A stretch of 64,000 nucleotides of DNA, taken from positions 1 to 64,000 of IMG/VR virus record IMGVR_UViG_3300031772_000013. One strand, 5' to 3'. Of the stretch, positions 5,920 through 62,298 are shown piece after piece (positions within the stretch are counted from its first letter, which is position 1; each line of letters opens with the position of its first letter). The translations under genes and the position numbers were made by a program. The notes beneath the pieces were generated by a model, which had not been told where the DNA came from, did not search any database, and saw only the letters and a program-made list of their open reading frames with translations. The stretch comes from a virus.

Positions 5920-6962
5920 TGGCAACAAGAAGAGTGATGAGTCGCAAACAACCGAGCCTCCCCGGCTTCCCGGACGTCCCCGACCGGATCGAGGTCCGAA
6001 TCCCGACGATGCCCTGGACGCAGATCGGCGGGGACATGGATCCCGGCGCGTCCGGCGGCACGATCGCGACGGCCGACGGGGATCATATCGAGCTGCTCAA
6101 GATCATGCCGGTGCGCGAGTACGTCGGCGACAAGGAAGCGGCCGACGTCGGCTTCCCGTTCTGGACGAAGGAGGCGTGGTTCGATCTCGCTGACCTCGAC
6201 CCGAAGAACGAGGACGTGAAGAGCGCGCTCCGGTCCTCCGGTTTCGATAGCGGCGATCAGAAGTTTCAGTTCGAGGAGGAAATGACGCCGGAACAGCGCG
6301 CGCTCGTCATCGCCGAGGCCCTCCTCGACTACGGCCGCGGAGACGAAGGCCCCTCGGGCTGGTCCGAAGACCTTCCCGACCACGAGGTGAAATGGTGGAG
6401 CGACAAGGTCGCAACCCTCCCCGACTACGTCGCCGACGAGGACGAGGTGTTCCGCGACGATGTGCTTGGATACAGCGACATCCGAGAGAACCTCGAGAAG
6501 ATGGTCGAGCAGATGGCCGATCAGAGCTCCGCGCAAGCATGGAGCACCGTCGGCGACGGGGCCGCGGGCGACGCCGAAGAGGCTGGCTACGATCCGGAAA
6601 CGCTTGTCGGTGTCGCCGAGTTCGGTGACGCCGTAGGCGTCAACGGCGACGTCGAGACCGAGAAGACGCTCAAAGGCGTCGAGGACGATCTCGAAAAGGA
6701 AGGCTACGAGATGACCGAAGCCGGCGGCAGCGTGCCGTCCGACGAGGCGACGGTCGACCCCAATAGCGCCATCCGAGCGGTTGCGAGCGAGATGGACATC
6801 GAGGAAGACACGGTCGAGGAAGCCGCTCAGGGGATCGATTGGTGGCCGAAGGGCAAGAACAACGAGATCACCAGCTCGACGAGCGGATGGGCTTCGATCT
6901 GGGGTAAGAAGATGGCAGGCGGGACCGAAGAACGACGAACAAACGCACGAAGGAGAAACTGA
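5919..6962 (+). CDS. acidic hypothetical protein with basic termini
   Basis: 347-aa ORF, D/E-rich core. Confidence 0.8.
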   Translation: MATRRVMSRKQPSLPGFPDVPDRIEVRIPTMPWTQIGGDMDPGASGGTIATADGDHIELLKIMPVREYVGDKEAADVGFPFWTKEAWFDLADLDPKNEDVKSALRSSGFDSGDQKFQFEEEMTPEQRALVIAEALLDYGRGDEGPSGWSEDLPDHEVKWWSDKVATLPDYVADEDEVFRDDVLGYSDIRENLEKMVEQMADQSSAQAWSTVGDGAAGDAEEAGYDPETLVGVAEFGDAVGVNGDVETEKTLKGVEDDLEKEGYEMTEAGGSVPSDEATVDPNSAIRAVASEMDIEEDTVEEAAQGIDWWPKGKNNEITSSTSGWASIWGKKMAGGTEERRTNARRRN

Positions 6963-6964
6963 AG

Positions 6965-7336
6965 ATGACTACGAGAGCAGGGTCGCACATGCAAGACGCT
7001 TGGCACTACTTCGACTCGGTGCTCGGTGGCGGGACGTTTAGCCGAGAGGGCCAATCCTTGAAGGGGCGCGTGGAGCTCTACGAGAGTGGACGCAGGCGTG
7101 CATTCGAAGCCCTGGAAGCCAGCTCGCTCGGTTCCGAAGATGACGAGGTCTACGACGAAATCGACAGTCTCCTGAGCATCGACGAAATCGAGGACGAGGC
7201 CCATCTCAAGCAAGCGTCGAAACGCGGGCGCGCTCTCGTCGAGAAGCTCGGGCGCGCTCTGAACATCGACGCTAGGAGCGGCGAGACGCCGGAAGTTTTT
7301 GAGACACCACGAACAAACGCACGAAGGAGAAACTGA
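6965..7336 (+). CDS. hypothetical protein flanked by 33-bp direct repeats
   Basis: AGGAG RBS; identical repeats at 6935-6967 and 7309-7341. Confidence 0.75.
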   Translation: MTTRAGSHMQDAWHYFDSVLGGGTFSREGQSLKGRVELYESGRRRAFEALEASSLGSEDDEVYDEIDSLLSIDEIEDEAHLKQASKRGRALVEKLGRALNIDARSGETPEVFETPRTNARRRN

Positions 7337-7338
7337 AG

Positions 7339-7824
7339 ATGGCGACCAGCAAAATGCACGCAAGACGACAGAGCGCCCCCAAGGGGCGAGGCGGCAGTTC
7401 AGGCGGGGCGAACCCCAGGAACGACGGCAGGATCAGCGAGGAGCAGCACGACGACGCGATGCGCGTGCTCCGCGCGGAGTATTACCAGGGCGTCCGGAGC
7501 CTCGCCCAGCAGGTCATCGAGCACATCGCGGAGGGCATGGACGAAGGCGACGCGCTTCACCAGGAGGTCGACAGCTCGTACTGGGTCATCTACACGCATG
7601 CGAACTTCCAGGTTCTCATGTGCTCGGATCACCACAACGCCTACTCGGAAGAGTACGGCGAGGCGCCGGTCGATGGATCGGACATCAACTGGGCCGGGCT
7701 CGCGTTCGCGGCGCTATCGCGTGATGTGAGCGATCAGATCGGTGCGGAGAGAAGCACGGTCGACGAGGCACGACGGCGCCCCATGCAGCGGCCCGGATCG
7801 CGCGCGACGCGCAGGGGCCGGTAA
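7339..7824 (+). CDS. acidic-core protein, possibly Ocr-like DNA mimic
   Basis: DALHQEVDSSYWVIYT loosely resembles the Ocr core; Arg-rich ends. Confidence 0.45.
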   Translation: MATSKMHARRQSAPKGRGGSSGGANPRNDGRISEEQHDDAMRVLRAEYYQGVRSLAQQVIEHIAEGMDEGDALHQEVDSSYWVIYTHANFQVLMCSDHHNAYSEEYGEAPVDGSDINWAGLAFAALSRDVSDQIGAERSTVDEARRRPMQRPGSRATRRGR

Positions 7825-7829
7825 GTAAG

Positions 7830-8963
7830 GTGGCCAACGTAGACGACACCGTAACCGCCGAATGGACGTGGGGCGGACACCGATTCAGCGCACACGGTGT
7901 CGTCACGAAGGTCAGCGGCAAGACAACCAAGGTCCGACTCACCGAACATGCCGGCGAACACTTCGCCCCGGGAGTCGTCGTGACGGTGCCGACAGAGAAC
8001 GTACGCAAGAAGGAAAAGACGATGGCAAAAACTCCACTGCATGGCCGACAGGCCCCCCGGCCGCGCATGAACGCGGGCCGCCACATCGCTCCCGGCTACC
8101 CGGCGGAAAGGTTCCGCATCGGCCAGGACGTGGCGATGATCTCGAACCCCGGTCTGTTGGGGCACGTCGTGGGTTTCGATCCAGACGGATCGGTGATGGT
8201 ACAGTGGAGCGGCGGTCGAACAGTAACAGGAGTCGATCCGAGGAATCTCCGCGTCCAAGGTCGGGGTTACGCGGGGCGACGCGCTTCCGAGGCACCCAAG
8301 ATGAGCGGCGCCCAGCAGTGGCAAGATCGGATCCTTCGCAACGCGGACGACTACGCTGCGGGGCGTATCTCCTGGGACGTCTGGTCCGCGCGACAGAGCG
8401 AGATGTGGGAAAAGATCCGAACCAAGGGGCGGCGCCTGGTCAGCCAAGTTCTGAACTTGCAGTTCGAGACCGGATACAACTACTCACCACCTTATCCGGG
8501 CTCCGGCGTGAGCGAGGCGCGGCGCTCCAGCTCAGCGCGACCCTTGCCGGGGCGCCACCACTCGCGTGAGAGCAGCACTCCCTCGAAGCGCGACATCGAC
8601 GAGATGTTCGACGCCTACGTCGAAACGGCGCTGTGGTCTTCGACCGCCGAAGACGACACGCCGCTCGATCTCCTCGACGCCGAGGTCGCCGCCTCGGCGC
8701 TAGACAAGATGAGCAAGGACGTCGAGAGCTTCGCGCGCGAGAACGCGCACCTCATCGAATCGGCCGACGTGGCTACGCACCAGTACGGTCGCTGGGGGCG
8801 TGCGGGGCACGACTTCTGGCTCACGCGGAGCGGCCACGGCGCAGGGTTCTGGGACGGAGACTGGGAGCCGGAGGCAACAGCAGAGCGGCTCACCGACGCA
8901 GCCCATGCGTACGGCGAGACGTACCTGTACGTGGGCGACGACGGCATGATCTACTCGGACTGA
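7830..8963 (+). CDS. modular phage protein; C-terminal GHDFWLTRxGHGAGFWD domain
   Basis: several modules separated by basic linkers; internal RBS+ATG at 8022. Confidence 0.8.
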   Translation: MANVDDTVTAEWTWGGHRFSAHGVVTKVSGKTTKVRLTEHAGEHFAPGVVVTVPTENVRKKEKTMAKTPLHGRQAPRPRMNAGRHIAPGYPAERFRIGQDVAMISNPGLLGHVVGFDPDGSVMVQWSGGRTVTGVDPRNLRVQGRGYAGRRASEAPKMSGAQQWQDRILRNADDYAAGRISWDVWSARQSEMWEKIRTKGRRLVSQVLNLQFETGYNYSPPYPGSGVSEARRSSSARPLPGRHHSRESSTPSKRDIDEMFDAYVETALWSSTAEDDTPLDLLDAEVAASALDKMSKDVESFARENAHLIESADVATHQYGRWGRAGHDFWLTRSGHGAGFWDGDWEPEATAERLTDAAHAYGETYLYVGDDGMIYSD

Positions 8964-8977
8964 ACAGGAGAACCACG

Positions 8978-9224
8978 ATGCCAGACTTCGACTTTGACTC
9001 CGAGCGCGACGCGCAGGGGCCGGTAAGTAAGGTGGCCAACGTAGACGACACCGTAAACCGCCGAATGGACGTGGGGCGGACACCGATTCAGCGCGCACGG
9101 TGTCGTCACGAAGGTCAGCGGCAAGACAACCAAGATCCGTCTCACCGAACATGCCGGCGAACACTTCGCCCCGGGAGTCGTCGTGACGGTGCCGACAGAG
9201 AACGTACGCAAGAAGGAAGAGACG
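8978..9224 (+). pseudogene. frameshifted copy of the N-terminal module of ORF 7830
   Basis: AGGAG+ATG at 8978 reads in frame into VANVDDTV, then +1 insertion. Confidence 0.55.
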
Positions 9225-10052
9225 ATGGCAAGAACTCCACTCCACGGCCGACAGGCCCCCCGCCCGCGCATGAACGCGGGCATCGACGCCAACGAGGCCG
9301 CACACGGAACGACAAACTGGACCCAAGGCAAGCTCTACGGGTCCGACAGGGTTGCGCTGTTCGGACAGCGCGCTGACAGCGATCTCTGGATCGAGATCAT
9401 CGAGGGGGCGAGCGTAGCCTTCATCATCACGAAGATGCGCGATGCCGGCGAGCAGGGTGAGCGCGTCGTGAAGAAAGTCACGACCAACATCCGACAGACC
9501 GACCCCGACGCCGACCGTCTTGCTCGCTCTCTCGGGATGCCAGGGGCGGGCTACGCCATAGAGATCGGTGAGGGGCTACTTGGCTCCCGGCCCGCACCCC
9601 GGGGCCGACAAGCCCCCTCTCCAAACCCGTCGCGGGCGCGTGAGAACACGGGGCGGCCCCTGCCGAGGCCACCTATGCGTGCACGCGAGACGGACGAGCG
9701 CGAGTTCTCGATGAACTACGGCCAGCTCCCGCCGTTCGAGCAGTTCATGCGAGATATTCGGCGCCCCGATCCCGATCATTCTGGGCGGGCGTACTGGCCG
9801 AAGGGTGAGAAGTATTCGATGGAGCTAGTCACTCCACCCGAGATCGAACTCGCCGAAGCCTTCGGTCTCGAAGAGTTCAGGGCGGAGCGAGCGCGCACGG
9901 GACGTAACACCAGCGTGCGTGGGTTCAGAGACAACGAGAAGGCGATCTACGAATTTCTCGAATACCTCTCCGATAGGTGGGACAACGGCGACGATTTTGC
10001 CGGAGACCTCGCCTCTGGGATCATGACATCGCTCGGCTACGAGTGGATCTGA
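9225..10052 (+). CDS. modular hypothetical protein
   Basis: AAGGA+ATG at 9225; leader shared with the internal start at 8022. Confidence 0.75.
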   Translation: MARTPLHGRQAPRPRMNAGIDANEAAHGTTNWTQGKLYGSDRVALFGQRADSDLWIEIIEGASVAFIITKMRDAGEQGERVVKKVTTNIRQTDPDADRLARSLGMPGAGYAIEIGEGLLGSRPAPRGRQAPSPNPSRARENTGRPLPRPPMRARETDEREFSMNYGQLPPFEQFMRDIRRPDPDHSGRAYWPKGEKYSMELVTPPEIELAEAFGLEEFRAERARTGRNTSVRGFRDNEKAIYEFLEYLSDRWDNGDDFAGDLASGIMTSLGYEWI

Positions 10053-10064
10053 AAGGTTTTAGCC

Positions 10065-11126
10065 ATGACACGCAAGCAACTAGGACCAGAACGACAGCAG
10101 TGGAAGGGCATCGACGCCAACGAGCGAGCCTTCGGCACCGTCCGTAACGCCCTGGTGGGCATCATCCTGGACGGCGTCGCGGGCGTCTCGCCCGGGGTGC
10201 CAGGCGAAGAGCGCCGCATGATCTCGCCCGAGGACGCCGATCGGTACATCGAGCGCGGTCAGCGGGTGCTCGCGGACTTCGAGAGCCAGGAGATGGCGCC
10301 CGGAGGCGCTCGGGGCCGCGCGCAGAAGTGGATGGATCGCACGATCCTCGAACTGCGACAGTTCGTGGCCGACGCCGAGGCGGTGCGCTCCGGCAAGAAA
10401 CCTCAGAAGATGACGCCGGAGAGCTACGCAGAGCTCCGCAAGCACCTGGGGGTGGGCGAAGCCCGCCGCTACCCGCAGCCGAAGCTCCCGCCTCGCCAGT
10501 TCGTGGCCCCGCGCGCCAACCATGTCGCCGCACGCGGGATTTCGGACGACAAGAAACAGCGTGCGTTCAGTCGGCTCGACCATTTCTTCGGGAGCCCCTC
10601 CAATCAGAAGAAAGGGTTTCCGTCCGAAGACGCAGCCGCGAGCAGCGCCGCGACCCTGCTGGCCGGACAACTAGGGATGAAGTACGGCTCAGCGATCGAG
10701 ATCGTGAAGGAGTGGTATCGGCGCGACGGCGGGGTCTCCGAAGCACCCCGGGGGCGCCGCACCGTCAATGACTACATCGCCATCGACACCCGCGACCGCC
10801 CCATCGCCGGCCCCTTCAAGAGCTACAGCGACGCTCGCCAGGCGGCCGGCACGGGGGGCGCCGTCCAGTTCGTGCCGTCGAGAGGGAAGGCGTCAGAGGC
10901 GGGCGACGACCACCGTGAGCGTTCGCTAGATCGTCTGTACGGCCACACCCGCGGGCGCGATCCGTACCCGTTCCCATCCGATCGGGATCGCGGGATCTCT
11001 CGCCTGTACGGCCCCAAGTCCGGCGGCGCCGGGGCACCTACTCTTTCCCGTGGCGCCCACCGTCCCCCCGAGCGCGCGCCAAGTGCGCGTCGTCGAGCGA
11101 AGAGGCTCGTCGGCGGGAAGAAGTAA
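10065..11126 (+). CDS. modular basic hypothetical protein
   Basis: linkers VGEARR, VSEAPR, ASEAG. Confidence 0.8.
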   Translation: MTRKQLGPERQQWKGIDANERAFGTVRNALVGIILDGVAGVSPGVPGEERRMISPEDADRYIERGQRVLADFESQEMAPGGARGRAQKWMDRTILELRQFVADAEAVRSGKKPQKMTPESYAELRKHLGVGEARRYPQPKLPPRQFVAPRANHVAARGISDDKKQRAFSRLDHFFGSPSNQKKGFPSEDAAASSAATLLAGQLGMKYGSAIEIVKEWYRRDGGVSEAPRGRRTVNDYIAIDTRDRPIAGPFKSYSDARQAAGTGGAVQFVPSRGKASEAGDDHRERSLDRLYGHTRGRDPYPFPSDRDRGISRLYGPKSGGAGAPTLSRGAHRPPERAPSARRRAKRLVGGKK

Positions 11127-12142
11127 TGGCCGCCCGTCGAGCAACGCACGTCGTCGTCAGCGCGACACCCATAGGGCACGATCCTCAGTACCCTCGGGTG
11201 GAGATCCTGATGGGATCGGGACGGAAGTGGACCTTCCTTCTCGGCAGACTGGCTCCGAAGGCGGGATGGGCTCATCCCGTGCGCAGCGTTCACCTCGTAC
11301 ACGCCCCTTACGAGCCTCGCAATCAGGCAACGCTCGTGTACGGGGGTGAGTACAGGGTTGCGAAAGCTGCCGCCGCCAAAGAGCTTTGGATCGTCGAGCG
11401 TCGCTCGTCTACGCCGAGCCCAGACGACACGACTGAAGCTAGCCTGCGTTTTCAGGAGATTGCCGACACCGTCGCTTGGGCTGCGCGCGATAACGCAAGG
11501 GCGACGGAAGGTTTGCCGCGCGGTAGTGACGGTTGGCTCTTTCACCGAGCAGTCTACGATTCTATCAAGTCCATTACCCAGTCGCTCCAGTCTACGGCGG
11601 AGTTTGCTGACTACGACGCGCCGAGACCGCTGACCGCAGCCGAGGCTGAAAAGGTTGGAAAGATCGCCATGTCGGACGAGGGTATCAACCTGACAGACCC
11701 GAAGATTCGGGCGTTCATGACAAGTAAAACTGACGTTCTGCCGAGCCCAGACGAAACGACCGTGAAGGAGAACACGATGAGAAGCGAACGACTCAAGGGG
11801 AACACGATGAGAGACGAGCAAGACAACTCATGGGGCCGCGGGTACCACCCGCTACCGGCACGCCTCTCGGGGCTCGGCCGCTTCATGGACGGCCTCGCGC
11901 CGACGAAGCTCCTCGACCACAAGGTGTGGCCCGACGATCCGACGGAGGGTGGCGACATCCACATGCTCACGGTCGAGGCCACAGATGTGAGCATCGGTTT
12001 CCGCGATCTCGAAAGCCTCATCGAGAACGGGCTCATCAGGATCCAGAGCAACGAGCCTGGTGCGGTTTCGTTCTACTTCGTCGGCAAGTCAGAGCGAGAT
12101 CCGGGCGGTTCCGGATGGGCACCGGTCAGGAGACGCCGATGA
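11126..12142 (+). CDS. modular hypothetical protein
   Basis: TAATG coupling; internal repeats. Confidence 0.75.
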   Translation: MAARRATHVVVSATPIGHDPQYPRVEILMGSGRKWTFLLGRLAPKAGWAHPVRSVHLVHAPYEPRNQATLVYGGEYRVAKAAAAKELWIVERRSSTPSPDDTTEASLRFQEIADTVAWAARDNARATEGLPRGSDGWLFHRAVYDSIKSITQSLQSTAEFADYDAPRPLTAAEAEKVGKIAMSDEGINLTDPKIRAFMTSKTDVLPSPDETTVKENTMRSERLKGNTMRDEQDNSWGRGYHPLPARLSGLGRFMDGLAPTKLLDHKVWPDDPTEGGDIHMLTVEATDVSIGFRDLESLIENGLIRIQSNEPGAVSFYFVGKSERDPGGSGWAPVRRRR

Positions 12143-12414: not shown

Positions 12415-12501
12415 GAAGACGCGATCCGACCCAAGAACGAACCGCTGTCCGTCACGCCGCCGAGCGCGTGGGGCGGTGGCGCACCGATTCAGGAGACCCC
12501 G

Positions 12502-26176: not shown

Positions 26177-26502
26177 AACAGAAACTCAACGAGAGACACG
26201 AGATCGACGCAGTCGGCAACCCGGGAGGCGGCGAGACCGCCGCGACGGGCATCGCCATCCGTTGGCAGAACGGCCCACTCGGGCGAGGCTCAGACCGCAA
26301 GGAGCCGAACGGCGCCTTCGTCGAGGGTGTCCTCCAGGCCGCCATCGGGCGCCTTGAGTTCTACCAGAAGGCGAACGGCAGCAAGTTCGCTTGCCGCGAG
26401 AACGCCATCGCGCTCACGCACCTCGAAACCGCGCTTCTCTGGCTGGAGAAGCGCACCAGGGGACGCGAGGAGCGCGAGGTCGAAGGGACGCACACACCGT
26501 GA
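26173..26502 (+). CDS. tad1: Tad1-like (Tad1/Acb2 superfamily) immune-signal sponge protein
   Basis: I.WQ.G...RL..YQ...F.CRENA.ALTH.E.AL.W...R...R..R.V.GT resembles Tad1. Confidence 0.8.
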   Translation: MKQKLNERHEIDAVGNPGGGETAATGIAIRWQNGPLGRGSDRKEPNGAFVEGVLQAAIGRLEFYQKANGSKFACRENAIALTHLETALLWLEKRTRGREEREVEGTHTP

Positions 26503-26846
26503 AAGACCAGATGCGCCTGGGGACTGAGATCGAGCCGGAACGAGGGGCGGCGAGCGCGTCACCTAGAGCCGAGGTGCTTTGGTTCGCTCAGGAAATGGAA
26601 GGGAAACTCAGAGCGAACGACCACAAGGGGCACTGGGACGGGTGTCGGTTCGACTACCTGTCTCGTCGACTCGCCGAAGAATCGGAGGAGTTAAATAAGG
26701 CGATCCTGGCTTCGTCGGGACAAATCACTCTCACTAGAGCGGAGGCCGATCGCATCATTCACGAGGCCGCCGACGTGGCGAACTTCGCGATGATGATCGC
26801 GGACAACGCGAAGCGTCTGCGGGGAGGAGGCGACACAGAGCGATGA
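26499..26846 (+). CDS. MazG-like all-alpha NTP pyrophosphatase-related protein
   Basis: EE..EL and EAADVANF motifs. Confidence 0.6.
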   Translation: MKDQMRLGTEIEPERGAASASPRAEVLWFAQEMEGKLRANDHKGHWDGCRFDYLSRRLAEESEELNKAILASSGQITLTRAEADRIIHEAADVANFAMMIADNAKRLRGGGDTER

Positions 26847-27345
26847 TGAAAGATCAGATACGTTTCGGGTCTGAGACCGAGCCAGGTAGAGGCGCAGCGA
26901 TCCGGCGACACGACGGGGGCCTAGGGGTCGGGACCTTCATGGAAGTGAAGGATGGCCAACCGATCCCCGAAGGCGCCGAACTCATCCAGGTCGGAGCTGA
27001 GGACAGTGACGGTTGGCGCGACGTGACGACGGTCTACAAGTCCGAGCGTAGCGGGCCGGCGCAGGTCGCGACCCCGAAGTATCGTGAGGGACACGACAGG
27101 ATTTTCGGGAAGCAGAAAATGGGGCTGGCGTGAGCGTCTTCAATTCAGAGCCAGTGTGTCTATCGTGCGGCAAACCGCCCGACATGGAAATCACGTCGAC
27201 TTTCCGTGCGCTCACAGCACACGGAGAACGAACGAGTGAGTTGATCAAAAAGGCGGGCACAGCCGTCCAATGGGCATGCGTGAAGTGCTTGATGAAAGCA
27301 GGAAAGGCGGCTGTGAGCGGCGACTTCGCGGAGGAGGAACTGTGA
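26843..27345 (+). CDS. two hypothetical ORFs (26843-27133; 27130-27345 with CxxC pairs)
   Basis: overlap coupling. Confidence 0.6.
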
Positions 27346-47964: not shown

Positions 47965-48948
47965 ATGAGCTACGACGCAAAGATTCTCGCAGATTCGATC
48001 TCGCCAGCGGGGCACCGAGTGACCACGATGCAGGTCACGTTCCCCAGGCTGATTTTGGCGGAGTTCAATACGCACCGCGTACTCTCGCGCAACAGCGCGT
48101 CGAGTCGCGCGATCCCGGTCGAACGGCGCATCGAGCAGATCAGGGAGAACCCGTTCGTGCCGGAGGCGTTCGGCAAGAACCAGAGAGGGATGCAGGCGAG
48201 CGAGGCGCTCGACGATGAGGCGAATCTGCTCGCTAGGACTCACTGGCTCAATGCTGCGGAGGACGCGCGTGAGCACGCCGGGTACCTAGCAGCCATCGGC
48301 GTGCACAAGCAGCACGCGAACCGCGTCATCGAAACCTACGCCTGGCACACCGTCATCGTGACCTCGACTGAGTGGGCCAACTGGGACGCGCTCCGCGTCA
48401 GCAAGATGGCGCAGCCGGAGATGTTCAAGATCGCCAGCATGATGCGCGAGGTGCGGCAGGCGAGCAAGCCCCTCGCGGTGAACTACGGTGACTGGCACCT
48501 GCCGCTCGTGCGGGGAGTGCTCGGGGCCGTCAACGCAGAGGAGCAGGCTTTGCGTGCCAGCACCGTCACGGCGTTGATGGGATACAGCCCCAGATCGGGC
48601 GTAAACGCAGAGGAGCAGGCTTTGCGTGCCAGCGGCTTCGATCCAGTCAAGGTCTGTGTCGGCCGCTGCGCGTCGGTGAGCTACGAGCGCCACGACGCGA
48701 CGACGCCCGAGAAGGCGAGTGCGATCTGCGACAAGCTCCGCGCCGACGGGCACATGTCACCGTTTGAGCACGCGCTCCGGCCCATGACGAACCACGAACT
48801 GAAGCTCTTCATGCAGGAAGACCTTCAGTGGAGCGGGCGCGAATGGGTGCTCGGGTCACAGCAGATTCGACACTTTCTCGGCAACGTCGAGGGGTGGGTC
48901 CAATTTCGGAAGCTCCTGCCCGGCGAAGCCGTGTACTGCGGGGAATGA
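47965..48948 (+). CDS. thyX: FAD-dependent thymidylate synthase (phage type)
   Basis: EFNTHR..SRN..SSRAIP, HKQ..NR, AQPE, H.SP.EH. Confidence 0.88.
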   Translation: MSYDAKILADSISPAGHRVTTMQVTFPRLILAEFNTHRVLSRNSASSRAIPVERRIEQIRENPFVPEAFGKNQRGMQASEALDDEANLLARTHWLNAAEDAREHAGYLAAIGVHKQHANRVIETYAWHTVIVTSTEWANWDALRVSKMAQPEMFKIASMMREVRQASKPLAVNYGDWHLPLVRGVLGAVNAEEQALRASTVTALMGYSPRSGVNAEEQALRASGFDPVKVCVGRCASVSYERHDATTPEKASAICDKLRADGHMSPFEHALRPMTNHELKLFMQEDLQWSGREWVLGSQQIRHFLGNVEGWVQFRKLLPGEAVYCGE

Positions 48949-50982: not shown

Positions 50983-52701
50983 ATGAAGAAGAGCCTACCG
51001 ATCAAGCGTGCCGTTTTCTGGCTCGACGGCGGCGCGCGCGTGCCCGGGTGGTCGACCGGCAAGACGTGGAACGGTTGGGGCGTGCCGCTGTTCGATGAGA
51101 GCCAGATCGAAGCGGCGAGAGCCGCGCTCCGAGCCGCTGGCATAGAGAGCGAGTTGCACAGCGGCGACATCTTGGAGCTCTGGCCCGTCGAGGAGCCCGA
51201 TCTGATCACTGAGCACCAGGCGATTCGACTCAAGGGGAAAACCTACTACTGGCAACTCGACGGCCTCACCTGGAACGAAGAGAGCTCGGGCGGGCGCCGC
51301 GCCGATGAGGCTAGCGCAGACGTCTGGGGCCACGCTCCATTGCCTGAGTCGATGTTAAGGGATGTGGCGCGCGATCTTCGTCGCTTGAACAATATGACGT
51401 CCTCGGCGGCGTTTCGTGAAGGCACTAAACTTCGCGTCTATCTTCAGCTCGCGGACGACGGGACTTGGGGGATCGGAGACCGCGAACCCACGTCCGGCCG
51501 ATGGGGCTCGGCGGCCATACCTGGAAACAACCGCCGATTCAACGCCACCGCCGTTGCGCGCGATCTTCTCGCGCAGGTCGAACGAGATAGCCATGCCGAG
51601 GAGAGACACATGCGCGAAGACAACAAGAAAGGCCCTTTTTTCGTGACGCTCTCGGCAGCGCCGAATCGTGACTTCGGACCAGGGAGCCACGAGGCGTCAG
51701 TCAGAATCCCTCCTCGGAAGCAGAAAGTGGTGAGCCTCGCCTACGCTTCGAAGGTCGTGCAGCGCTTCATCGCAGAACATGATCTAGGCAGCGGCAACTG
51801 GACAGGCGGACTCATCACTGATGCTTCGGGGAAGGCGATCGGCCGTGTCGCCTACAACGGGCGCATCTTCGATCTCGATGACAAGATCATGTGGGACAAC
51901 CAGACCTCTCCGGGCGTGCGCGAAGACCGGTTCGAGATCCCGGGCTGGATCGCCGCAGTGGGGTGGAGTGGAGTCGAGTGGGTTGTGTACGGTATCGGAG
52001 AAGACGAAGACGAAGCTGCTGCCGACGCCAGAAATTGGACGGAGACGCCGTGGCTTACGTTCTTGCCGATTTCCAAAGATCAGATCGCGGCCATGGGTGA
52101 CCACAAAGAGGAGAACCGATGCGCCGCAATCGGTCTCGATGTCGGCAACGCCAGCCGTACGGCTCCGCGACATTTGCGCGCCGAAGAACATCGCGTGCGC
52201 GAAAGCCGGTTCGAGATCCCCGGCTGGAGCGTCGGGTACCACTCCGAGATCAGCGCTCACGCCGCAGTTCGAACGGGCAGGGGGCGCGACTGGCTCTTTG
52301 TCATGACGACGCCCGAGGACCGAGAGCCGCGGAGCCTCGACGAAGAGGTGACGGTCGGGCTCTACTTCTTCGACGGAGACGACTGGGAGCAGATCGCGTA
52401 CGTCGACTTCCCCGACGTCCGTTCGGTGATCAAACTGGGCGACGCAGAACTCCACCTCGTCATCGAGCACGGACTGTCGCTGGATCAATCCCGCGAGCTA
52501 CTCGTCCAGGAGTTCGACGACTGGGACGGCGAAGACACGCTCACGTCGTGGATGCAGACGATCCTCAAGGATGCTGGCGTAGAGCCGGAGGAGGCGGGCG
52601 CAGATGCCGCCACGCACGAGGCTACCGAGCAAATCTACAACGCCTCTCCAGCGCAGATCCTCGAGTACATGGACGAGCGATCGAAAGCCCTCAACGAGTG
52701 A
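50983..52701 (+). CDS. polyvalent-type modular protein
   Basis: WNGW..P.F module, GNWTGG...YNGR module, linkers ADEA, MRED, VRED, VRES. Confidence 0.8.
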   Translation: MKKSLPIKRAVFWLDGGARVPGWSTGKTWNGWGVPLFDESQIEAARAALRAAGIESELHSGDILELWPVEEPDLITEHQAIRLKGKTYYWQLDGLTWNEESSGGRRADEASADVWGHAPLPESMLRDVARDLRRLNNMTSSAAFREGTKLRVYLQLADDGTWGIGDREPTSGRWGSAAIPGNNRRFNATAVARDLLAQVERDSHAEERHMREDNKKGPFFVTLSAAPNRDFGPGSHEASVRIPPRKQKVVSLAYASKVVQRFIAEHDLGSGNWTGGLITDASGKAIGRVAYNGRIFDLDDKIMWDNQTSPGVREDRFEIPGWIAAVGWSGVEWVVYGIGEDEDEAAADARNWTETPWLTFLPISKDQIAAMGDHKEENRCAAIGLDVGNASRTAPRHLRAEEHRVRESRFEIPGWSVGYHSEISAHAAVRTGRGRDWLFVMTTPEDREPRSLDEEVTVGLYFFDGDDWEQIAYVDFPDVRSVIKLGDAELHLVIEHGLSLDQSRELLVQEFDDWDGEDTLTSWMQTILKDAGVEPEEAGADAATHEATEQIYNASPAQILEYMDERSKALNE

Positions 52702-54375: not shown

Positions 54376-54426
54376 TTAGCCTTCTCCTTGCGCGCGGCCT
54401 GCGGGCGGGGCATCATCGAACTTCAC

Positions 54427-54768: not shown

Positions 54769-54824
54769 GGCCCCCCTCCCGGGGTCGTGGTGGAGGCAGA
54801 AGGGAATCACCGCCCTTCGCCCCA

Positions 54825-54860
54825 GAAACGGCTCGGCAACCCCGGGCCGTTTCGTTTTCT
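54825..54860 (+). terminator. intrinsic terminator after the tmRNA
   Basis: GAAACGGCTCGG...CCGGGCCGTTTC then GTTTTCT. Confidence 0.7.
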
Positions 54861-55173
54861 ACGTGGCGGGCTTCGAGGATCCACACCGCGGAGACGCTCC
54901 AGCGGCGAACGCCGCGCGGATCACCTGCGTCGTGTCCGCGCCATGTGCCTTCACCAACGCTAGCTTTGCCTCGGGGTAGGTAACGGGGATCAGTCCCTTG
55001 GACGAGTACCAGAGCAGGTTGATCGGCCACTCGCGCGCAAACTGTTCGGTGGTGCTTTCCTGCCATCCGTCGGGCAACACCCACGTGTCCGAGCCGGCCG
55101 AGAGCATGAAGAAGTGGTCGAGGGTGCAGGGCGAGTGCGTTTTCACTTCCTCCAGCGTCATTGTGAAACGCAT
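54859..55173 (-). CDS. hypothetical protein
   Basis: 104-aa ORF. Confidence 0.6.
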   Translation of the reverse strand: MRFTMTLEEVKTHSPCTLDHFFMLSAGSDTWVLPDGWQESTTEQFAREWPINLLWYSSKGLIPVTYPEAKLALVKAHGADTTQVIRAAFAAGASPRCGSSKPAT

Positions 55174-55185
55174 GGCTGCCGACTC

Positions 55186-55779
55186 TTACGGGAAGGCCCC
55201 GAGCGTGCCGGTCCCCGCCTGCGTAACGCTCGCTCCGGCAATCTCGCTTGCCTTGAGCCAGCTTCCCGGTACGGACGTGAAGCCATCCGATCCGTTGATC
55301 ACGATGAGCGGGAGGTTCGCGTTGTTGTAGGGGACCGCGATCGTTGCCTTGGTCGCCCCTACGGGGATCCGCACAGATGAAAGACTCCGATAGGTCTGGA
55401 AACCGGGTGCCATGTCCCCGCCCGCGACGCTATTCACGATCATCAGGAAGTCGGCGGGGAACACTGGAGCGGCAACGAAACTCACTGCGACCCCAAACGA
55501 GAACTCGTGATTCGCGTTCGGAACGTCAGGGTTCTGCACGTTCAAACTCACATCGACCTCAAGGAAGTTCCCTGGAGTGACGACGGGGAGCACGACCCGA
55601 AGCGGCACGGTGCCACTCGGGTTACTTGGAATCTCGGTATCGAACGGGCCGACCGTCGCCGGCAGCGTGCGCGTTTTCTCAACCTGCGCATATCCGACCT
55701 GGATGAGGCCGCCGCCGCCACCAGAGCGCTCAGGGTACGTCTCGGTCGCGTATCGTCCCTTGCCGATGACTCTGCTCAT
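55186..55779 (-). CDS. beta-rich protein, possible virion fibre/decoration protein
   Basis: short N-terminal peptide, poly-Gly hinge, V/T/P-rich body. Confidence 0.5.
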   Translation of the reverse strand: MSRVIGKGRYATETYPERSGGGGGLIQVGYAQVEKTRTLPATVGPFDTEIPSNPSGTVPLRVVLPVVTPGNFLEVDVSLNVQNPDVPNANHEFSFGVAVSFVAAPVFPADFLMIVNSVAGGDMAPGFQTYRSLSSVRIPVGATKATIAVPYNNANLPLIVINGSDGFTSVPGSWLKASEIAGASVTQAGTGTLGAFP

Positions 55780-55896
55780 GACCGAGAGTCTACCGGGGCC
55801 TCGTGGACTGCGCTAGAGAGGGCACGAATGCCCGCCCTTCGCCCCAGAAGCGGCCCGGTAACCCCGGCCGTTTCGCTTTCTGGTAGGCTACCCTCC

Positions 55897-56418: not shown

Positions 56419-57680
56419 TCTCGCCCCACCACAACGACAGCCGGGAACTCCCTGGCCTTCAGATGCCAGAGCGCAACGAAGCGGTGTGCCCCCTCGATGA
56501 TGAACGGCCCCTTCTCGTCGATGCCGATGATGAGCGGGCTGATCTCGCCAGAGCGCCCGATCAGCTCGGCCAGGCGCTCGCTCCGCTCGAAGTCGTCCGC
56601 GGCGTAGAACACCGAGCGCGGGTTGCCGAGGTCGGACATCGGCACGACGCGAACGCCCGGGAGCTCTTCCTGCTCCTCCATGTAGTCGTCGATCGATTCG
56701 ACGTTCGGAACGTCTTTGCGCACGAGGCGCCCGTCGACGTACTCGCCAGCTCGTGGGTAGCGCGAGCCTGTCGATTCGATCAGGGATTCGAGCGAGGTCG
56801 CCTCGCGCAATCCGAATGGACGGCTCTTCTGCCCCCACAACGCTTGCGCCGCCTCCGTGTGGGGCTCGTCCGGGAGAAAACTGAGCCCCGATAGTTGCTC
56901 CGCCCACACGTAGAGCTCCGTCGCGATCCCCTGCCGACGGTATTCGGGGCGCACCTCGATGGCGCCCTTCAGCGTTTCGTCCGAAGGACGCTCTCTCCCG
57001 TAGAACAGGGAGCCGACGACCTTGTTTCCATCGACCGCGATGATGGTGGCGTAGCCGCCCTTGTGCGGAAGCCAGTGCATCTCGTATCCGTTGAACGGTT
57101 TACTCTTCTGAGCGCGCCTCAACGAGTCCCGCAAGGAGTCGTCCAGGGCCGCCCACTTGCGGGGGTCATCGCTTGGGCCTGATTCGCGCATCTCACCTGC
57201 GCCGCGCTCGACGAGAAACACGGCCGGGATGCTCTTCCAAGCCATTCCGATCGCGTAGCTGACCCTGCCACGCCCGTCGCCGATGGCGGTGTCCCCGTTG
57301 CGGAGCGTCACGACGACGATGGGAGGCACGGTGCGGGGCGTCCACTGGACAGCGCGCTTGGCCCAGGCCGCCCCTCGGAACGAGTGTAGTTCAAGGACAC
57401 GGTCTTGCTCGTCGAGTTCCTTGAGATCCCCGTGCCGCCATTCGGGCCACGAAGAGAGATCGTCGTAGATGCCGAGTTCCTTGAGCGACACGACGCGGGA
57501 TTCGATGGCGAAGTCGTCAAGGTTCAGCTCGTGCTCGCTGGAGTCACTCATGTGATCCAGAGCGTCCGCCAAGTCTTGCGGATCGGCCTCGATGCTTTGC
57601 GCTGGCTCTCGCATCGTCGCGACTGAGCGGCGAGTGAGCTGGCTCCCTTTGGGTTCGATTCGGTAGTAGAGCTTGGGCAT
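56415..57680 (-). CDS. ParB-like + GNAT acetyltransferase + ParB-like modular protein
   Basis: PPIVV..GDGRGR; V.PEYRRQGIAT.LY; PLII..IEGAHR. Confidence 0.8.
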   Translation of the reverse strand: MPKLYYRIEPKGSQLTRRSVATMREPAQSIEADPQDLADALDHMSDSSEHELNLDDFAIESRVVSLKELGIYDDLSSWPEWRHGDLKELDEQDRVLELHSFRGAAWAKRAVQWTPRTVPPIVVVTLRNGDTAIGDGRGRVSYAIGMAWKSIPAVFLVERGAGEMRESGPSDDPRKWAALDDSLRDSLRRAQKSKPFNGYEMHWLPHKGGYATIIAVDGNKVVGSLFYGRERPSDETLKGAIEVRPEYRRQGIATELYVWAEQLSGLSFLPDEPHTEAAQALWGQKSRPFGLREATSLESLIESTGSRYPRAGEYVDGRLVRKDVPNVESIDDYMEEQEELPGVRVVPMSDLGNPRSVFYAADDFERSERLAELIGRSGEISPLIIGIDEKGPFIIEGAHRFVALWHLKAREFPAVVVVGRD

Positions 57681-57685
57681 TGTTT

Positions 57686-58495
57686 TCACACGAACGTGAA
57701 GACGACCTCTACCGAGTCGTCTTTGGCGCGACGAGCGGCGACGAGACGGTGGTTGCCGTCCACGATCCACCCGGACCCGTTCTGAAAGACGCCGATCTCG
57801 ATGGGCGGGAGCCAGACGCCCTCGCCGCGCGCCTGTTGCACCGATCGCAGTCGCGCCTTGTCGATGGCGGTCGCGCGCAAGCTGTTCAATTCCTCCAGAG
57901 GGACGATAGCAGACACGGTCCAGTAGTCGCCGACCAAGTGGTACGACGGCGGCCCGTACGCCGAACGAGGGGAACCTCGATCTGGATCTGCCGGCAAGGA
58001 CCGGTACTTGTCGAAGGGGCCTTGTTTACGAGCGGTCGTCTCGCGCATCTCACCTGCACCACCTTCGTCACGCCAGCGCGCGTCCTCGACGACCGCGACA
58101 AACTCGCTCTCCGGCATGAACATCTCGATCGCGCAGTCGCCACGGAAGTGCGCGGCGAGAACGCGATGGTTTCCGTCCTGCACGTACGCTTTGCCCGACC
58201 GTCGCCGTTGCGAACGCCCTCCGTAGGAGGCGGTCCCGGGCGGAAAGGGCGTGCCCCGAGCTGCGTACCGCCTCGCGCGCTCGACGCGCTCCTGACTCGA
58301 TTCTTCTTCGGTCTGGAAGTCCAGGTAGTCGAGCGGCACGGTAGCGCGCACCCAGATCGGGCCGCGATCAAACATCCACTCATACATGGCGGGATCGGGG
58401 GGCGCCCCGTGACGTCCGCGCGCGTAGAGGCGCTGGTAACTGTCGACGACGTCGTGGACGTCGAGCCGCTCGATGATGGCGAAGTCGCACGTCAT
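57686..58495 (-). CDS. tandem ParB/Srx-like domain protein
   Basis: DGNHR twice, separated by GAGEMRE. Confidence 0.8.
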   Translation of the reverse strand: MTCDFAIIERLDVHDVVDSYQRLYARGRHGAPPDPAMYEWMFDRGPIWVRATVPLDYLDFQTEEESSQERVERARRYAARGTPFPPGTASYGGRSQRRRSGKAYVQDGNHRVLAAHFRGDCAIEMFMPESEFVAVVEDARWRDEGGAGEMRETTARKQGPFDKYRSLPADPDRGSPRSAYGPPSYHLVGDYWTVSAIVPLEELNSLRATAIDKARLRSVQQARGEGVWLPPIEIGVFQNGSGWIVDGNHRLVAARRAKDDSVEVVFTFV

Positions 58496-59622: not shown

Positions 59623-59626
59623 CGCG

Positions 59627-60514: not shown

Positions 60515-60557
60515 GCTTCGTCTCAGATGAACGTGATCGGCTCCGCCACGACCAGTG

Positions 60558-60776
60558 TCACAGGACAACCTCCACAGGAATCCACGACGAGGTGTCTCGC
60601 ATCCACTGGAAAAGCTGCACCTTCTGCTCCGTCATGATCCTGGCGTTCTTGACGAGCAGAAGCATGGTGCCGAAGTCCGCGAAGGTCGGCCCGATCATGT
60701 TCCCGGTACCGGTGACCACTGGGCCAATCGCGCTTCGCACCGAGAACGGTGGAACAAAAATGTAGTACCAGTTCAT
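60558..60776 (-). CDS. small hypothetical protein between direct repeats
   Basis: 72-aa ORF; repeats at 60525-60553 and 60792-60820. Confidence 0.55.
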   Translation of the reverse strand: MNWYYIFVPPFSVRSAIGPVVTGTGNMIGPTFADFGTMLLLVKNARIMTEQKVQLFQWMRDTSSWIPVEVVL

Positions 60777-60789
60777 CGGCTACGTCTTT

Positions 60790-62298
60790 TTAGATGAACG
60801 TGATCGGTTGCGCCACGACCGGCACACCCGCCAGCGCGAGCTGCAAGGTCCGCGTGAAGAGCCCGCTCAGGAAAGGCACCGCTCCCCCGACGGTCACCGG
60901 GGGCTGCATCGTCGCTGGCACAAGCGGTGGGCTCGGCGGTGGGGCGGCGTTGCCGGGATCGACGAACTGCCCGAGCAGCCCAGCGAGCTGAACGTTCGAG
61001 GGCGGCACGGCCGGCGACGGGCTCACCCGCACCGCGCCCGTCGGCTTCTTGATGACCGTAGTGCCGATGTTGCCCTTGGTTCCGACGTTGTTGTTCGTGC
61101 CGGTGTTGACGAGCCCGGTGTTGTTGGTGTCGATCCCCGTGTACTCCGTCGTGAGCGTCACGATTTTCGGTCCCAGCGCCGCGACGGTGTAGAGCGTGCC
61201 CATCTGCTCGGCGAACTCGATGACGTTGCCTGGCGCGAGCGCGGCCGTTTGATCGGCCGTCGTAGGCACGTCCTTCGATCCGGTCGTGACGATGAAGTCG
61301 CCAGCCAGATGCGGGGTACTGGTCCCTTGCGCGGCGAGCGCGAAGTACGAGGGAGGCAAGTACGCGAGCGCCTTCGAGATGAGGAGCTGAGCCTCGTCAG
61401 TGAGCGCGAAGAACGTGTTGTCACCTTGGCCTGCGCCGACGCCGGTACCCGGGGTCGCATTTGGTCGGATCGATGGGAGTGGGCCTGAAAGTTCGACGAG
61501 TGTGATCTCTCCGATGCTGTTGCCGAACCCGCCAACGCTCGCGATGACGATGTTCGTGATCTCGGCGATATTTATCGTGCCTCCCGCGAGAGCGACAGCG
61601 GCCGGCCGCCTGCCAGTAAGCGAAACCGTCGTAGATCCCGCAGCACCGAGCGTGTCCTTGTACGTCACGGTCACGGTCCTCGCGCCCGATCCCGCCGGGA
61701 TCGGTGGCACGGTCGCGACGCCAGCGGTGTCGAGATCCGAGCTGGAGTAGATGGCAGCGATCGTGACCGGTGCTGCGATCTCATGGAACGCGCCCGTGTT
61801 CTGCGTCACACCTGTGTACGGCGTCGTGAGGTTGATCGATGTGGGTGTCGTCCCTGCTGCGATCGTGTAGAAGACGCCCTGTTGCGAGAGAAACTGGATG
61901 ATGCTCCCGGTGACGAGCGACGGGAGTTGTGTCATCGACGTCAGGACGCCGGTTGAACCGTTCGTGGGGAAGAACGATCCCGGAAGCGTCACCGCCTCTC
62001 GTAACGGGTACGGGAGCACGGGGGGCGTCGCGGTGCGAGGGTGACAGGGAAAGGGAGGCGGCGCCTTGCGCGCGTTCGCGGCGTCCATGTTGAGCGTCAG
62101 GGTGCGCGTCGCGGTGGTCGGCCCGGACACGGCGGAAGCGTCACTCGCGACGGTGAGGCCGTAGTTCTGCCCGAGCACGGGGTCGGTGGTCGGATCTCCA
62201 AAGAGTGGAACCGCAGCGAGCGCAGCAGCCGCCGCCACAGGCCCGAGAATGGTGTTCGTGACGTCGACGGTCCACTTGAGCACGATTTGAGTCGCCAT
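60790..62298 (-). CDS. Thr/Gly/Pro-rich probable virion structural protein
   Basis: composition; repeated YT...LTT.YTG modules. Confidence 0.6.
   Translation of the reverse strand: MATQIVLKWTVDVTNTILGPVAAAAALAAVPLFGDPTTDPVLGQNYGLTVASDASAVSGPTTATRTLTLNMDAANARKAPPPFPCHPRTATPPVLPYPLREAVTLPGSFFPTNGSTGVLTSMTQLPSLVTGSIIQFLSQQGVFYTIAAGTTPTSINLTTPYTGVTQNTGAFHEIAAPVTIAAIYSSSDLDTAGVATVPPIPAGSGARTVTVTYKDTLGAAGSTTVSLTGRRPAAVALAGGTINIAEITNIVIASVGGFGNSIGEITLVELSGPLPSIRPNATPGTGVGAGQGDNTFFALTDEAQLLISKALAYLPPSYFALAAQGTSTPHLAGDFIVTTGSKDVPTTADQTAALAPGNVIEFAEQMGTLYTVAALGPKIVTLTTEYTGIDTNNTGLVNTGTNNNVGTKGNIGTTVIKKPTGAVRVSPSPAVPPSNVQLAGLLGQFVDPGNAAPPPSPPLVPATMQPPVTVGGAVPFLSGLFTRTLQLALAGVPVVAQPITFI

What the first reader, a model, noticed from the sequence alone, without database searches (positions are those of the whole stretch)
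6935..60820. Genome-wide pattern: genes and in-frame domains inserted between duplicated target sequences
Seen: pairs of direct repeats, each pair unrelated to the others, bracket a gene or module: 6935/7309 (33 bp exact), 7802/9004 (~277 bp), 11413/11740 (20/21), 26499/26846 (41/55), 48532/48604 (30 bp exact), 51914/52193 (33/36), 54810/55832 (~50 bp), 57184/58041 (17 bp exact), 60525/60792 (27/29). The duplicated piece is usually a gene start, gene end+RBS, terminator or coding segment/linker, and frame or translational coupling is kept, apart from one later +1 base. No transposase or terminal inverted repeats are visible. Divergence differs between pairs, implying repeated events over time. 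Inference: a recurring, sequence-nonspecific module-acquisition process (small-circle integration by short homology, or duplication followed by replacement), possibly using the element's own nuclease, helicases and resolvase.
Basis: partly seen in the sequence, partly recalled or inferred. Interest (0 to 1): 0.8.

Follow-up and report, generated by a model that had tools for sequence, protein, structure and literature searches.

The report
Recombination scars in a mosaic phage
The short direct repeats that bracket genes and protein modules in this uncultured sediment phage-like genome are real, but they are the ordinary footprints of module shuffling between related phages, a pattern already described in mycobacteriophages, T4-type phages and bacterial genomes, and not a new insertion machine.

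Summary
All nine repeat pairs are present at the stated coordinates with the stated identities. They far exceed a codon-preserving shuffle: 17 ungapped matches of score 17 or more within 40-2000 bp, against 0.09 expected.

Relatives bear on five pairs:
- One repeat copy and no bracketed segment for the g18/g19 N-terminal module, the ThyX loop, the g89 93-residue segment and the terminator after the tmRNA.
- For pair 1, relative L001 has the same g15-g16-g17 order with both junctions already alike, so that repeat is old and was homogenised later.

Other points:
- A near-identical g89 allele (P0002) differs from ours by a 179-residue block that is offset from the repeats.
- In two pairs the second copy is a non-coding fossil of the upstream gene's 3' end, so DNA was truly duplicated.
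- Pair 8 lies in two partly paralogous ParB-like genes.
- The density, 13 loci per 75 kb, is within about 1.5-2.5-fold of other viral contigs (5-9).

Best reading: scars of out-of-register, short-homology recombination among co-circulating mosaic relatives. This equals "insertion with long target duplication" and the Island3 and LRRHood cases of mycobacteriophages. I found no transposase, terminal inverted repeats or precise excision joints. The scan has noted a similar cassette in another phage. Interest is low to moderate.

The parts
6932..7349 (+). Pair 1. Copies at 6932-6975 and 7306-7349 (33/33 core, 40/44) bracket g16 (6965-7336). Each copy holds the last 8 codons (RTNARRRN*), the AAGGAG RBS and the next ATG.
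   Evidence: L001 has g15-g16-g17 in the same order, with both junctions resembling this repeat.
7799..9281 (+). Pair 2. Copies at 7799-8078 and 9001-9281 (96-98%) bracket the body of g18. Each copy holds the last 8 codons of g17, the stop, the spacer, the GTG start and 83 N-terminal codons. In copy 2 the g17 tail is a non-coding fossil, and an extra A near 9057 breaks the frame of g19.
   Evidence: L029 and P0035 have one N-module gene and no g19. The N-module is joined to at least four different bodies in database proteins.
9278..10124 (+). It forms the joint between the N-module and the g19 body, and is also residues 14-20 of g20.
11413..11760 (+). Pair 3: 20/21 nt, 327 nt apart, in frame inside g21 (PSPDDTT / PSPDETT).
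   Evidence: No relatives were found for g21.
26499..26900 (+). Pair 4. g54 and g55 begin with the same 18 residues (41/55 nt, 13/18 aa). The genes overlap their neighbours by GTGA/ATGA.
   Evidence: The bodies are unrelated. No relatives were found.
48525..48633 (+). Pair 5. Copies at 48525-48561 and 48597-48633 (35/37, 30 exact) lie 72 nt apart in a variable loop of ThyX (g85): GVNAEEQALRAS appears twice with 12 residues between.
   Evidence: All six aligned relatives have one copy. Co-occurring strains have 37-39 nt where this genome has 109.
51914..52234 (+). Pair 6. Copies at 51914-51955 and 52193-52234 (37/42) lie 279 nt apart in frame in g89 (VRE[DS]RFEIPGW).
   Evidence: L005 has one copy and lacks the 93 residues. 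P0002 lacks residues 202-380 instead. Contigs of three other samples span both copies.
54804..55883 (+). Pair 7. A terminator-like hairpin with a U-tract occurs at 54804-54862 (just after the tmRNA) and at 55826-55883 (50/59). It brackets g93 and g94, which lie on the minus strand.
   Evidence: L005 and L026 have one copy after their tmRNA homologue, and L005 runs on to g96 without g93-g95.
57184..58067 (-). Pair 8: 17 nt exact (23/27) encoding GAGEMRE in linkers of g96 and g97, two neighbouring genes that share a ParB-like C-terminal domain.
60518..60820 (-). Pair 9. The copy at 60785-60820 is the coding 3' end of g101 (VVAQPITFI*). The copy at 60518-60553 is a non-coding fossil of it (VVAEPITFI*) in the g100-g99 spacer. 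Together they bracket g100 (72 aa).
   Evidence: A strain variant has a different sequence upstream of g100 (loose ends at 60777).
92..743 (-). Same phenomenon outside the given range: three copies of a stop-to-start junction (TGAAGCACGGATGCAC ... GGAGG ... CACCTATG) bracket two unrelated small ORFs.

Best explanation
The repeats are recombination scars of modular (mosaic) evolution in a population of co-circulating, related phage-like genomes.

How the scars arise. These genomes share short conserved stretches: translation-initiation junctions, an 83-residue N-terminal module, linkers and a terminator. These stretches sit next to highly variable genes or protein modules. When two relatives, or two copies, recombine out of register, a segment that carries its own copy of the shared stretch is joined beside the resident copy. 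The result is R-X-R. The event can be an unequal crossover with one illegitimate joint, or equivalently Campbell-type entry of a circularised fragment through the shared stretch.

What selection keeps. Only products that keep frame, start signals or termination survive. That is why the duplicated piece is a gene end with RBS and start, a gene start, a linker or a terminator.

What happens afterwards. The repeats can be lost by deletion, which gives single-copy relatives. They can be homogenised by gene conversion (pair 1). One stacked copy can decay (the +1 A in g19).

No dedicated enzyme or site is needed.

Shown: the duplications are real DNA duplications, single-copy states exist in relatives, and modules are shuffled across the lineage. 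Inferred: the direction of each event and the recombination route.
For: 1. The repeats are real and non-random.
2. Single-copy states exist in relatives. L029/P0035 have one N-module gene. All six aligned ThyX relatives, and strain variants shorter by about one 72-nt period, have one copy. L005 has one g89 repeat that aligns to both of ours. L005 and L026 have one terminator after the tmRNA.
3. Non-coding fossils of the upstream gene's 3' end in pairs 2 and 9 show copied DNA, not convergent protein motifs.
4. In pairs 6 and 7 the two copies are no more alike than each is to the orthologous copy in L005 (37/42 against 36/42 and 33/42; 50/59 against 47 and 46). This is what is expected if the copies came from two lineages.
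5. Shuffling is rampant. The N-module is attached to at least four bodies, g19's halves are recombined with other modules, and one ORF in L029's contig fuses modules that are separate genes here. g99 is fused to different N-termini and lies beside g90 in relatives.
6. Strain-level cassette gain, loss and replacement is seen in four sediment samples.
7. The same structures are published: Island3 gene 68 shares 18 C-terminal residues and about 50 bp with the upstream gene; LRRHood genes 43-46 lie between 29-bp repeats that are single-copy in relatives (PMC3029335). 'Insertion with long target duplication' is also described (PMC2853133).
8. Similar repeat densities occur in unrelated viral contigs.
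Against: Polarity is unresolved for most pairs, because deletion between repeats in relatives gives the same picture. Only ThyX has outgroups. No donor genome carrying any X segment next to R was found. The P0002 allele shows that gain or loss in g89 need not use the repeats. Pair 1 is conserved in L001, so it needs an added step of gene conversion. Pairs 3, 4 and 9 have no informative relatives. Relatives are 55-90% identical, too distant for exact breakpoints.
Confidence: 0.6

Rival explanations
1. An active cassette-exchange process. The repeats work as recombination handles, like PeSL motifs of T4-type phages. Homologous recombination between them releases mini-circles, which re-enter at the same handle in other genomes. 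The element's own nuclease and helicases may drive this.
For: Gene-sized units are bracketed by junction or terminator repeats (pairs 1, 7, 9 and the three-copy junction at 92-743). g100 lies in a different context in a co-occurring strain. Pair 1 is homogenised to 33/33, so its copies still interact. PeSL mini-circles are documented (PMC2839356). The element encodes a PD-(D/E)XK nuclease and SNF2 and UvrD helicases.
Against: Each pair has a private sequence, so there is no common handle for exchange between loci. No precise R-to-R deletion joint is among the best-supported joints in four runs. The strain indels seen (54376->54801, 54383->56389, 46098->47761) do not end at the repeats. The P0002 block is offset from the repeats. 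Repeat density is not above that of other viral contigs by more than about 2-fold.
Confidence: 0.12
2. Plain local duplication followed by divergence or replacement. Each R-X-R began as a tandem duplicate of a gene or domain, and only the most constrained or gene-converted piece still looks repeated.
For: g96 and g97 share a ParB-like domain downstream of the shared linker (z = 6.7). g16 against g17 gives a weak signal (z = 3.5, 3 of 500 shuffles). g89 has three PGW-type motifs that could mark repeated domains. Pair 4 is old (75% identity).
Against: There is no significant similarity between X and its neighbours for pairs 2, 3, 4, 6 and 9, although the repeats are up to 100% identical. A neutral tandem duplicate would not keep 30-280 nt nearly identical while the rest is randomised. 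Database proteins show the same modules in other combinations.
Confidence: 0.15
3. Functional repeats kept by selection. The shared pieces are regulatory or targeting signals (translation-initiation regions, a terminator, an N-terminal anchor, protease or linker sites), and they are similar because they must be, not because of a shared insertion history.
For: Both junctions around g16 are conserved in L001. The terminator is conserved in L005 and L026 and folds as a 12-bp hairpin with a U-tract. The N-terminal module and the GxGRYAxETYP peptide recur on different bodies.
Against: Synonymous sites and non-coding fossils are copied too. Each signal has only two or three copies, and those are adjacent. 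Function explains why the copies are kept, not how adjacent copies arose.
Confidence: 0.08
4. Metagenome assembly artefact: strain variants were stitched in series at shared k-mers.
For: The contig comes from sediment metagenomes that hold many co-occurring variants.
Against: Most repeats are shorter than typical assembly k-mers. Contigs from three other samples, built independently, span both copies of pair 6 with 2-7 differences. The proteins g18, the truncated g19 and g89 each occur identically on two or three contigs, including one of 110,873 nt. A serial join would need reads that cross the novel junctions.
Confidence: 0.03

Closest known systems
Direct-repeat-flanked insertions in mycobacteriophages (Island3 gene 68; LRRHood genes 43-46; Pope et al. 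2011, PMC3029335)
   Same: A small gene's last residues and about 50 bp copy the end of the upstream gene, as in pairs 1 and 9. A multi-gene block lies between 29-bp direct repeats that are single-copy in relatives, as in pairs 6 and 7. No mobile-element genes are present. The authors also could not decide between gain by recombination with an unknown partner and loss by recombination between the repeats.
   Different: Here there are many such loci in one genome, some lie inside genes and are in frame, the repeats range from 17 to 283 nt, and the lineage is an uncultured sediment virus unrelated to actinobacteriophages at sequence level.
Insertion with long target duplication (Nobusato et al. 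2000, cited from memory; Furuta, Abe and Kobayashi 2010, PMC2853133)
   Same: An inserted segment lies between direct repeats longer than 30 bp and of variable length. The repeat is unique in the genome and single-copy at the same site in a related genome. No transposase or integrase is involved.
   Different: That process was described for restriction-modification genes in bacterial chromosomes. Here the cargo is unknown phage genes and protein modules, several repeats are shorter than 30 bp, one pair (pair 1) fails the single-copy test, and one allele (P0002) has other boundaries.
PeSL regulatory cassettes and mini-circles of T4-type phages (Arbiol et al. 2010, PMC2839356; Comeau et al. 2014, PMC4122927)
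   Same: Expression signals repeated between small non-essential genes in hyperplastic regions bracket genes that differ between relatives. Recombination between the flanking copies would excise or insert a cassette.
   Different: PeSLs are one conserved promoter plus stem-loop motif dispersed over many sites. Here each repeat is private to its locus, several are coding, and no circles have been looked for.
Transposon or insertion-sequence target-site duplication
   Same: Direct repeats flank an inserted segment.
   Different: Transposon duplications are short and of fixed length, and they come with terminal inverted repeats and a transposase. None of these is seen here.

Membership tests
Insertion with long target duplication | The segment is flanked by direct repeats longer than 30 bp | tested here: met
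   Met for pairs 1, 2, 5, 6 and 7 (33-283 nt). Pairs 3, 8 and 9 are 17-29 nt.
Insertion with long target duplication | The repeat is single-copy at the same site in a related genome that lacks the segment, and both copies align to it | tested here: inconclusive
   Met for pairs 2, 5, 6 and 7. Not met for pair 1, where L001 has both junctions and g16. Pair 6 has a second allele with other boundaries. Relatives for pair 8 do not span it, and pairs 3, 4 and 9 have no informative relatives.
Insertion with long target duplication | No transposase, integrase or inverted repeats are associated with the segment | tested here: met
   There were no Pfam or PHROG mobile-element hits in g16, g18, g19, g54 or g89, nor in g93 and g94 by Pfam; g95 and g100 were not scanned. 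No flanking inverted repeats were found. The only integrase (g102, 62592-63746) lies outside all pairs.
Insertion with long target duplication | The repeat sequence is otherwise unique in the genome | tested here: met
   The families found have two copies each, except the three-copy junction at 92-743.
PeSL-type regulatory cassette shuffling | One conserved promoter plus stem-loop motif recurs at many intergenic sites | tested here: not met
   Each pair has its own sequence, with no family shared across loci.
PeSL-type regulatory cassette shuffling | Mini-circles or excision joints are formed by recombination between flanking copies | not testable with these tools
   Only contigs could be laid. 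No precise repeat-to-repeat joint is among the best-supported joints, and contigs drop rare forms.
Transposon or IS insertion | Short fixed-length target duplication, terminal inverted repeats, transposase | tested here: not met
   Repeat lengths range from 17 to 283 nt. No terminal inverted repeats were found, and no transposase hits.
Site-specific integration (att sites) | An integrase lies next to the insert, and the repeat is the att core, often in a tRNA or tmRNA 3' end | tested here: not met
   The pair 7 repeat is the terminator downstream of the tmRNA, not its 3' end, and no integrase lies in 54.8-55.9 kb.

The most novel reading that the evidence does not exclude
This lineage may stack alternative versions of effector-like genes and protein modules on a regular basis. 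It would use locus-private handles (junctions, an N-terminal module, linkers, a terminator) for reversible cassette entry and exit through short-homology recombination and small circles. That would be a PeSL-like or integron-like exchange without a common site or a dedicated integrase, reaching inside reading frames.
Probability: 0.12. Interest if true: 0.6.

Novelty: new member of a known kind. Interest (0 to 1): 0.3.

Why it matters
The genome gives a dense, well-resolved set of examples of how phage mosaicism looks at base level. These include in-frame module additions inside an essential enzyme (ThyX) and inside a multi-module protein. Non-coding fossils of gene ends prove that DNA was copied rather than motifs converging. 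Population variants from the same sediments show that cassette gain, loss and replacement is ongoing. As a catalogue it could help to settle the old question of whether mosaic joints arise at short conserved boundary sequences or by illegitimate events filtered by selection. It does not reveal a new mechanism, and comparable repeat densities in unrelated viral contigs argue that it is a general property of phage genomes.

Tried and rejected
1. Megablast of 44 kb of the window against 50,697 phage records gave no match. The best DNA polymerase hit is 29.5% identical, so no cultured relative is available.
2. Viral-contig scans with g52, g57 and g101 found no relatives. Pairs 4 and 9 therefore stay without comparators.
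3. The metagenome scan with g90 gave only relatives at 86% or less, with a different gene order in which g99 lies next to g90. This did not help with breakpoints.
The 110,873-nt contig and the P0002 contig could not be fetched, so exact breakpoints of the 179-residue g89 block are unknown. I saw no clean microhomology in our sequence at 51586/52123.
5. I tested paralogy of the inserts with their neighbours by BLASTP and by shuffled Smith-Waterman scores. This was negative except for g96/g97 and, weakly, g16/g17. g93/g94 also gave a signal, but both lie inside the same bracket.
6. Base composition of the inserts is only mildly lower in GC3 than the genome mean. Two of my segment values were computed out of frame and are discarded.
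7. Transposon, att-site and assembly-artefact readings were considered and rejected (see rival explanations and membership tests).
8. Programmed +1 frameshifting for g19 was considered. No slippery or stop context is evident at GTA-AAC-C, so decay of the stacked copy or use of the 9183 start is more likely.


Full report
**Setting**

The window is the first 64 kb of a single 75,451-bp contig with about 63% G+C. I made a gene map with a codon-usage and RBS scorer, giving g1-g126. The genes found include:
- a family A DNA polymerase, a primase-polymerase, SNF2 and UvrD helicases and a PD-(D/E)XK nuclease;
- ParB-like proteins, ThyX, several DNA methyltransferases and a PAPS-reductase-like protein;
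- a tyrosine integrase, a transglycosylase or baseplate-hub-like protein and a tmRNA.

Most other proteins match nothing in Pfam or PHROGs. No cultured phage is close. Near-identical DNA occurs in many sediment metagenomes. The element is therefore an uncultured, phage-like genome from sediment.

**Observation**

- Shuffling codons within genes and bases between genes gives 0.45 exact direct repeats of 15 nt or more at 40-2000 bp, against 19 observed.
- The same shuffles give 0.09 ungapped matches of score 17 or more, against 17 observed.
- Pair 4 is older (41/55). That level was never reached in 20,000 random window pairs, and the pair also shows up as 13/18 shared N-terminal residues.
- More loci of the same kind exist: 9278/10106 (19 nt exact) and a three-copy stop-to-start junction at 92-743.

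**What each repeat is**
- Pair 1: g15 and g16 both end in RTNARRRN*, followed by AAGGAG and the next ATG.
- Pair 2: the copy starts 26 nt before the g17 stop and runs through the g18 start and 83 codons. In the second copy the g17 tail is non-coding, and an extra A near 9057 breaks the frame. The gene caller's truncated 289-residue g19 occurs identically on two contigs, so the frameshift is not a one-off error.
- Pair 4: g54 and g55 share 18 N-terminal residues.
- Pair 5: a 12-residue peptide occurs twice, 72 nt apart, in a variable loop of ThyX.
- Pair 6: VRE[DS]RFEIPGW occurs twice, 93 residues apart, in g89.
- Pair 7: a 12-bp hairpin with a U-tract lies right after the tmRNA and again 1,022 nt downstream, around the minus-strand genes g93 and g94.
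- Pair 8: GAGEMRE lies in linkers of g96 and g97.
- Pair 9: the copy between g100 and g99 is a non-coding fossil (VVAEPITFI*) of the coding end of g101 (VVAQPITFI*).

The fossils in pairs 2 and 9 show that DNA was copied. The similarity is not convergence of protein motifs.

**Relatives**

IMG/VR and JGI contigs with 55-90% protein identity were found. They are strikingly mosaic.

*Single-copy states*
- L029 has g17 followed by one gene with the N-module and no g19. In the protein database the N-module is joined to at least four different bodies. The two halves of g19 are recombined with other modules. One ORF on L029's contig (P0035) fuses modules that are separate genes here.
- All six aligned ThyX relatives have one copy of the repeated peptide. 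Co-occurring strains have 37-39 nt in place of our 109, about one 72-nt period less.
- L005's g89 homologue (383 residues) has one repeat, which aligns to both of ours, and lacks the 93 residues between them.
- L005 and L026 have one terminator after their tmRNA homologue, and L005 then runs on to g96.

*Counter-examples*
- L001 has g15-g16-g17 in the same order at 55-71% protein identity, and both of its junctions already resemble our repeat, one with an 11-nt indel. The pair 1 duplication therefore predates that split, and the 33/33 identity here must come from later homogenisation.
- The closest g89 allele (P0002; 99% identical over its C-terminal 192 residues) lacks residues 202-380. That block contains the first repeat but is not bounded by the repeats.

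*Strain-level variation*
Strain indels in the metagenomes also do not end at repeats: loss of the tmRNA (54376->54801), loss of 54384-56388, and replacement of 46098-47761.

**Paralogy**

BLASTP and shuffled Smith-Waterman scores find no similarity between the bracketed segments and their neighbours for pairs 2, 3, 4, 6 and 9. The exceptions are g96/g97, which share a ParB-like domain (z = 6.7), and a weak g16/g17 signal. Plain tandem duplication explains pair 8 at most.

**Artefact**

Contigs from three other samples, built independently, span both copies of pair 6 with 2-7 differences. The proteins g18, the truncated g19 and g89 occur identically on two or three contigs. Most repeats are shorter than assembly k-mers. 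An artefact is unlikely.

**Is the pattern special?**

With the same score threshold, this genome has 13 repeat loci per 75 kb. Its relatives have 5.1, and unrelated viral and metagenome contigs about 9. Local direct repeats above chance are a general property of such contigs.

**Mechanism**

In pairs 6 and 7 the two copies are no more alike than each is to the orthologous copy in L005. This fits copies that came from two lineages. Together with the module shuffling, the most economical account has four parts:
1. Out-of-register recombination occurs between co-circulating relatives that share a short conserved stretch next to variable DNA. This can be an unequal crossover with one illegitimate joint, or entry of a circular fragment through the shared stretch.
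2. The product is R-X-R.
3. Selection keeps products that preserve frame, start signals or termination.
4. Later deletion, gene conversion (pair 1) or decay of one stacked copy (the g19 frameshift) follow.

The direction of each event is inferred, not shown; only ThyX has outgroups. No terminal inverted repeats bracket the segments, and no transposase was detected in the proteins scanned. Nothing ties the events to the element's own nuclease, helicases or integrase.

**Comparison with what is known**
- Pope et al. 2011 (PMC3029335) describe Island3 gene 68, whose last 18 residues and about 50 bp copy the upstream gene. They also describe LRRHood genes 43-46, which lie between 29-bp repeats that are single-copy in relatives. 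They face the same ambiguity between gain and loss.
- Furuta et al. 2010 (PMC2853133) define "insertion with long target duplication". It involves repeats longer than 30 bp, a single-copy site in a relative and no mobile-element genes.
- Arbiol et al. 2010 (PMC2839356) show that repeated promoter-terminator cassettes mediate gene shuffling and mini-circle formation in T4-type phages.

The present loci meet the defining features of long target duplication for pairs 2, 5, 6 and 7, fail them for pair 1, and cannot be judged for the rest. They do not meet the PeSL criterion of one common motif. Earlier notes of this scan record a comparable optional cassette between 25-bp repeats in a multi-module protein of another phage. 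I did not check that note.

**Verdict**

This is a new set of examples of a known kind of recombination footprint. It is unusually well illustrated, with in-frame cases, non-coding fossils and population variants, but it is not a new mechanism. Interest 0.3.

Noticed in passing
window 54427-54768: A complete tmRNA gene (tag ANDNSIALPVQKAA*) is present in the element. Co-occurring strains in two metagenome runs lack it: a joint runs 54376->54801 with 13 other letters between. Another strain lacks 54384-56388.
   Followed up: partly
window 92-743 (minus strand): Three copies of a stop-to-start junction (TGAAGCACGGATGCAC ... GGAGG ... CACCTATG) separate two unrelated small ORFs, one ACT-domain-like and one Cys-rich. 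The array touches the contig start.
   Followed up: partly
window 9032-9183: The g19 copy of the N-terminal module carries one extra A (GTAAACC against GTAACC), so the g18-like frame has no start codon. The same truncated 289-residue ORF is on two contigs, so g19 is probably a decaying or re-started stacked copy.
   Followed up: partly
window 46098-47761: A low-GC block (57% G+C, ORF 46090-47670, 526 aa, no family match except an unknown PHROG at its end) is replaced by 1,751 other letters in a co-occurring strain.
   Followed up: no
window 55186-55779; L027 6757-7536 and 9963-10532: g94, g117 and g120 share only an N-terminal peptide of about 20 residues (I[IG]KGRYA.ETYP.RS). L026 has a g120-like gene directly after its tmRNA terminator.
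   Followed up: partly
window 7830-13707; proteins P0004, P0012, P0021, P0035: The proteins of this operon are chains of modules joined by Arg/Pro-rich linkers (for example GRPLPRRPLRARE). The same modules occur in other orders and fusions in database proteins, including one 506-residue ORF that fuses four modules.
   Followed up: partly
window 40052-40200 and 40753-40854: A perfect 23-nt inverted repeat (arms 103 nt apart) and a 51-nt tandem duplication lie in the gap after the primase gene. This is possibly a replication origin.
   Followed up: no
window 62340-62358 and 63970-63988: A 19-nt inverted repeat (89% complementary) flanks the tyrosine integrase gene g102 and the small gene after it.
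   Followed up: no
window 52698-53006 and 59627-60514: In most relatives the g99 homologue lies directly upstream of g90 on the same strand. Strains with that joint (52700|59629, opposite strands) co-occur in the metagenomes, so this genome carries an inversion or transposition of about 7 kb relative to them.
   Followed up: no
whole contig: Identical g18, g19 and g89 proteins occur on a contig of 110,873 nt, so the 75-kb contig may be an incomplete genome. No terminal overlap was found at its ends.
   Followed up: no
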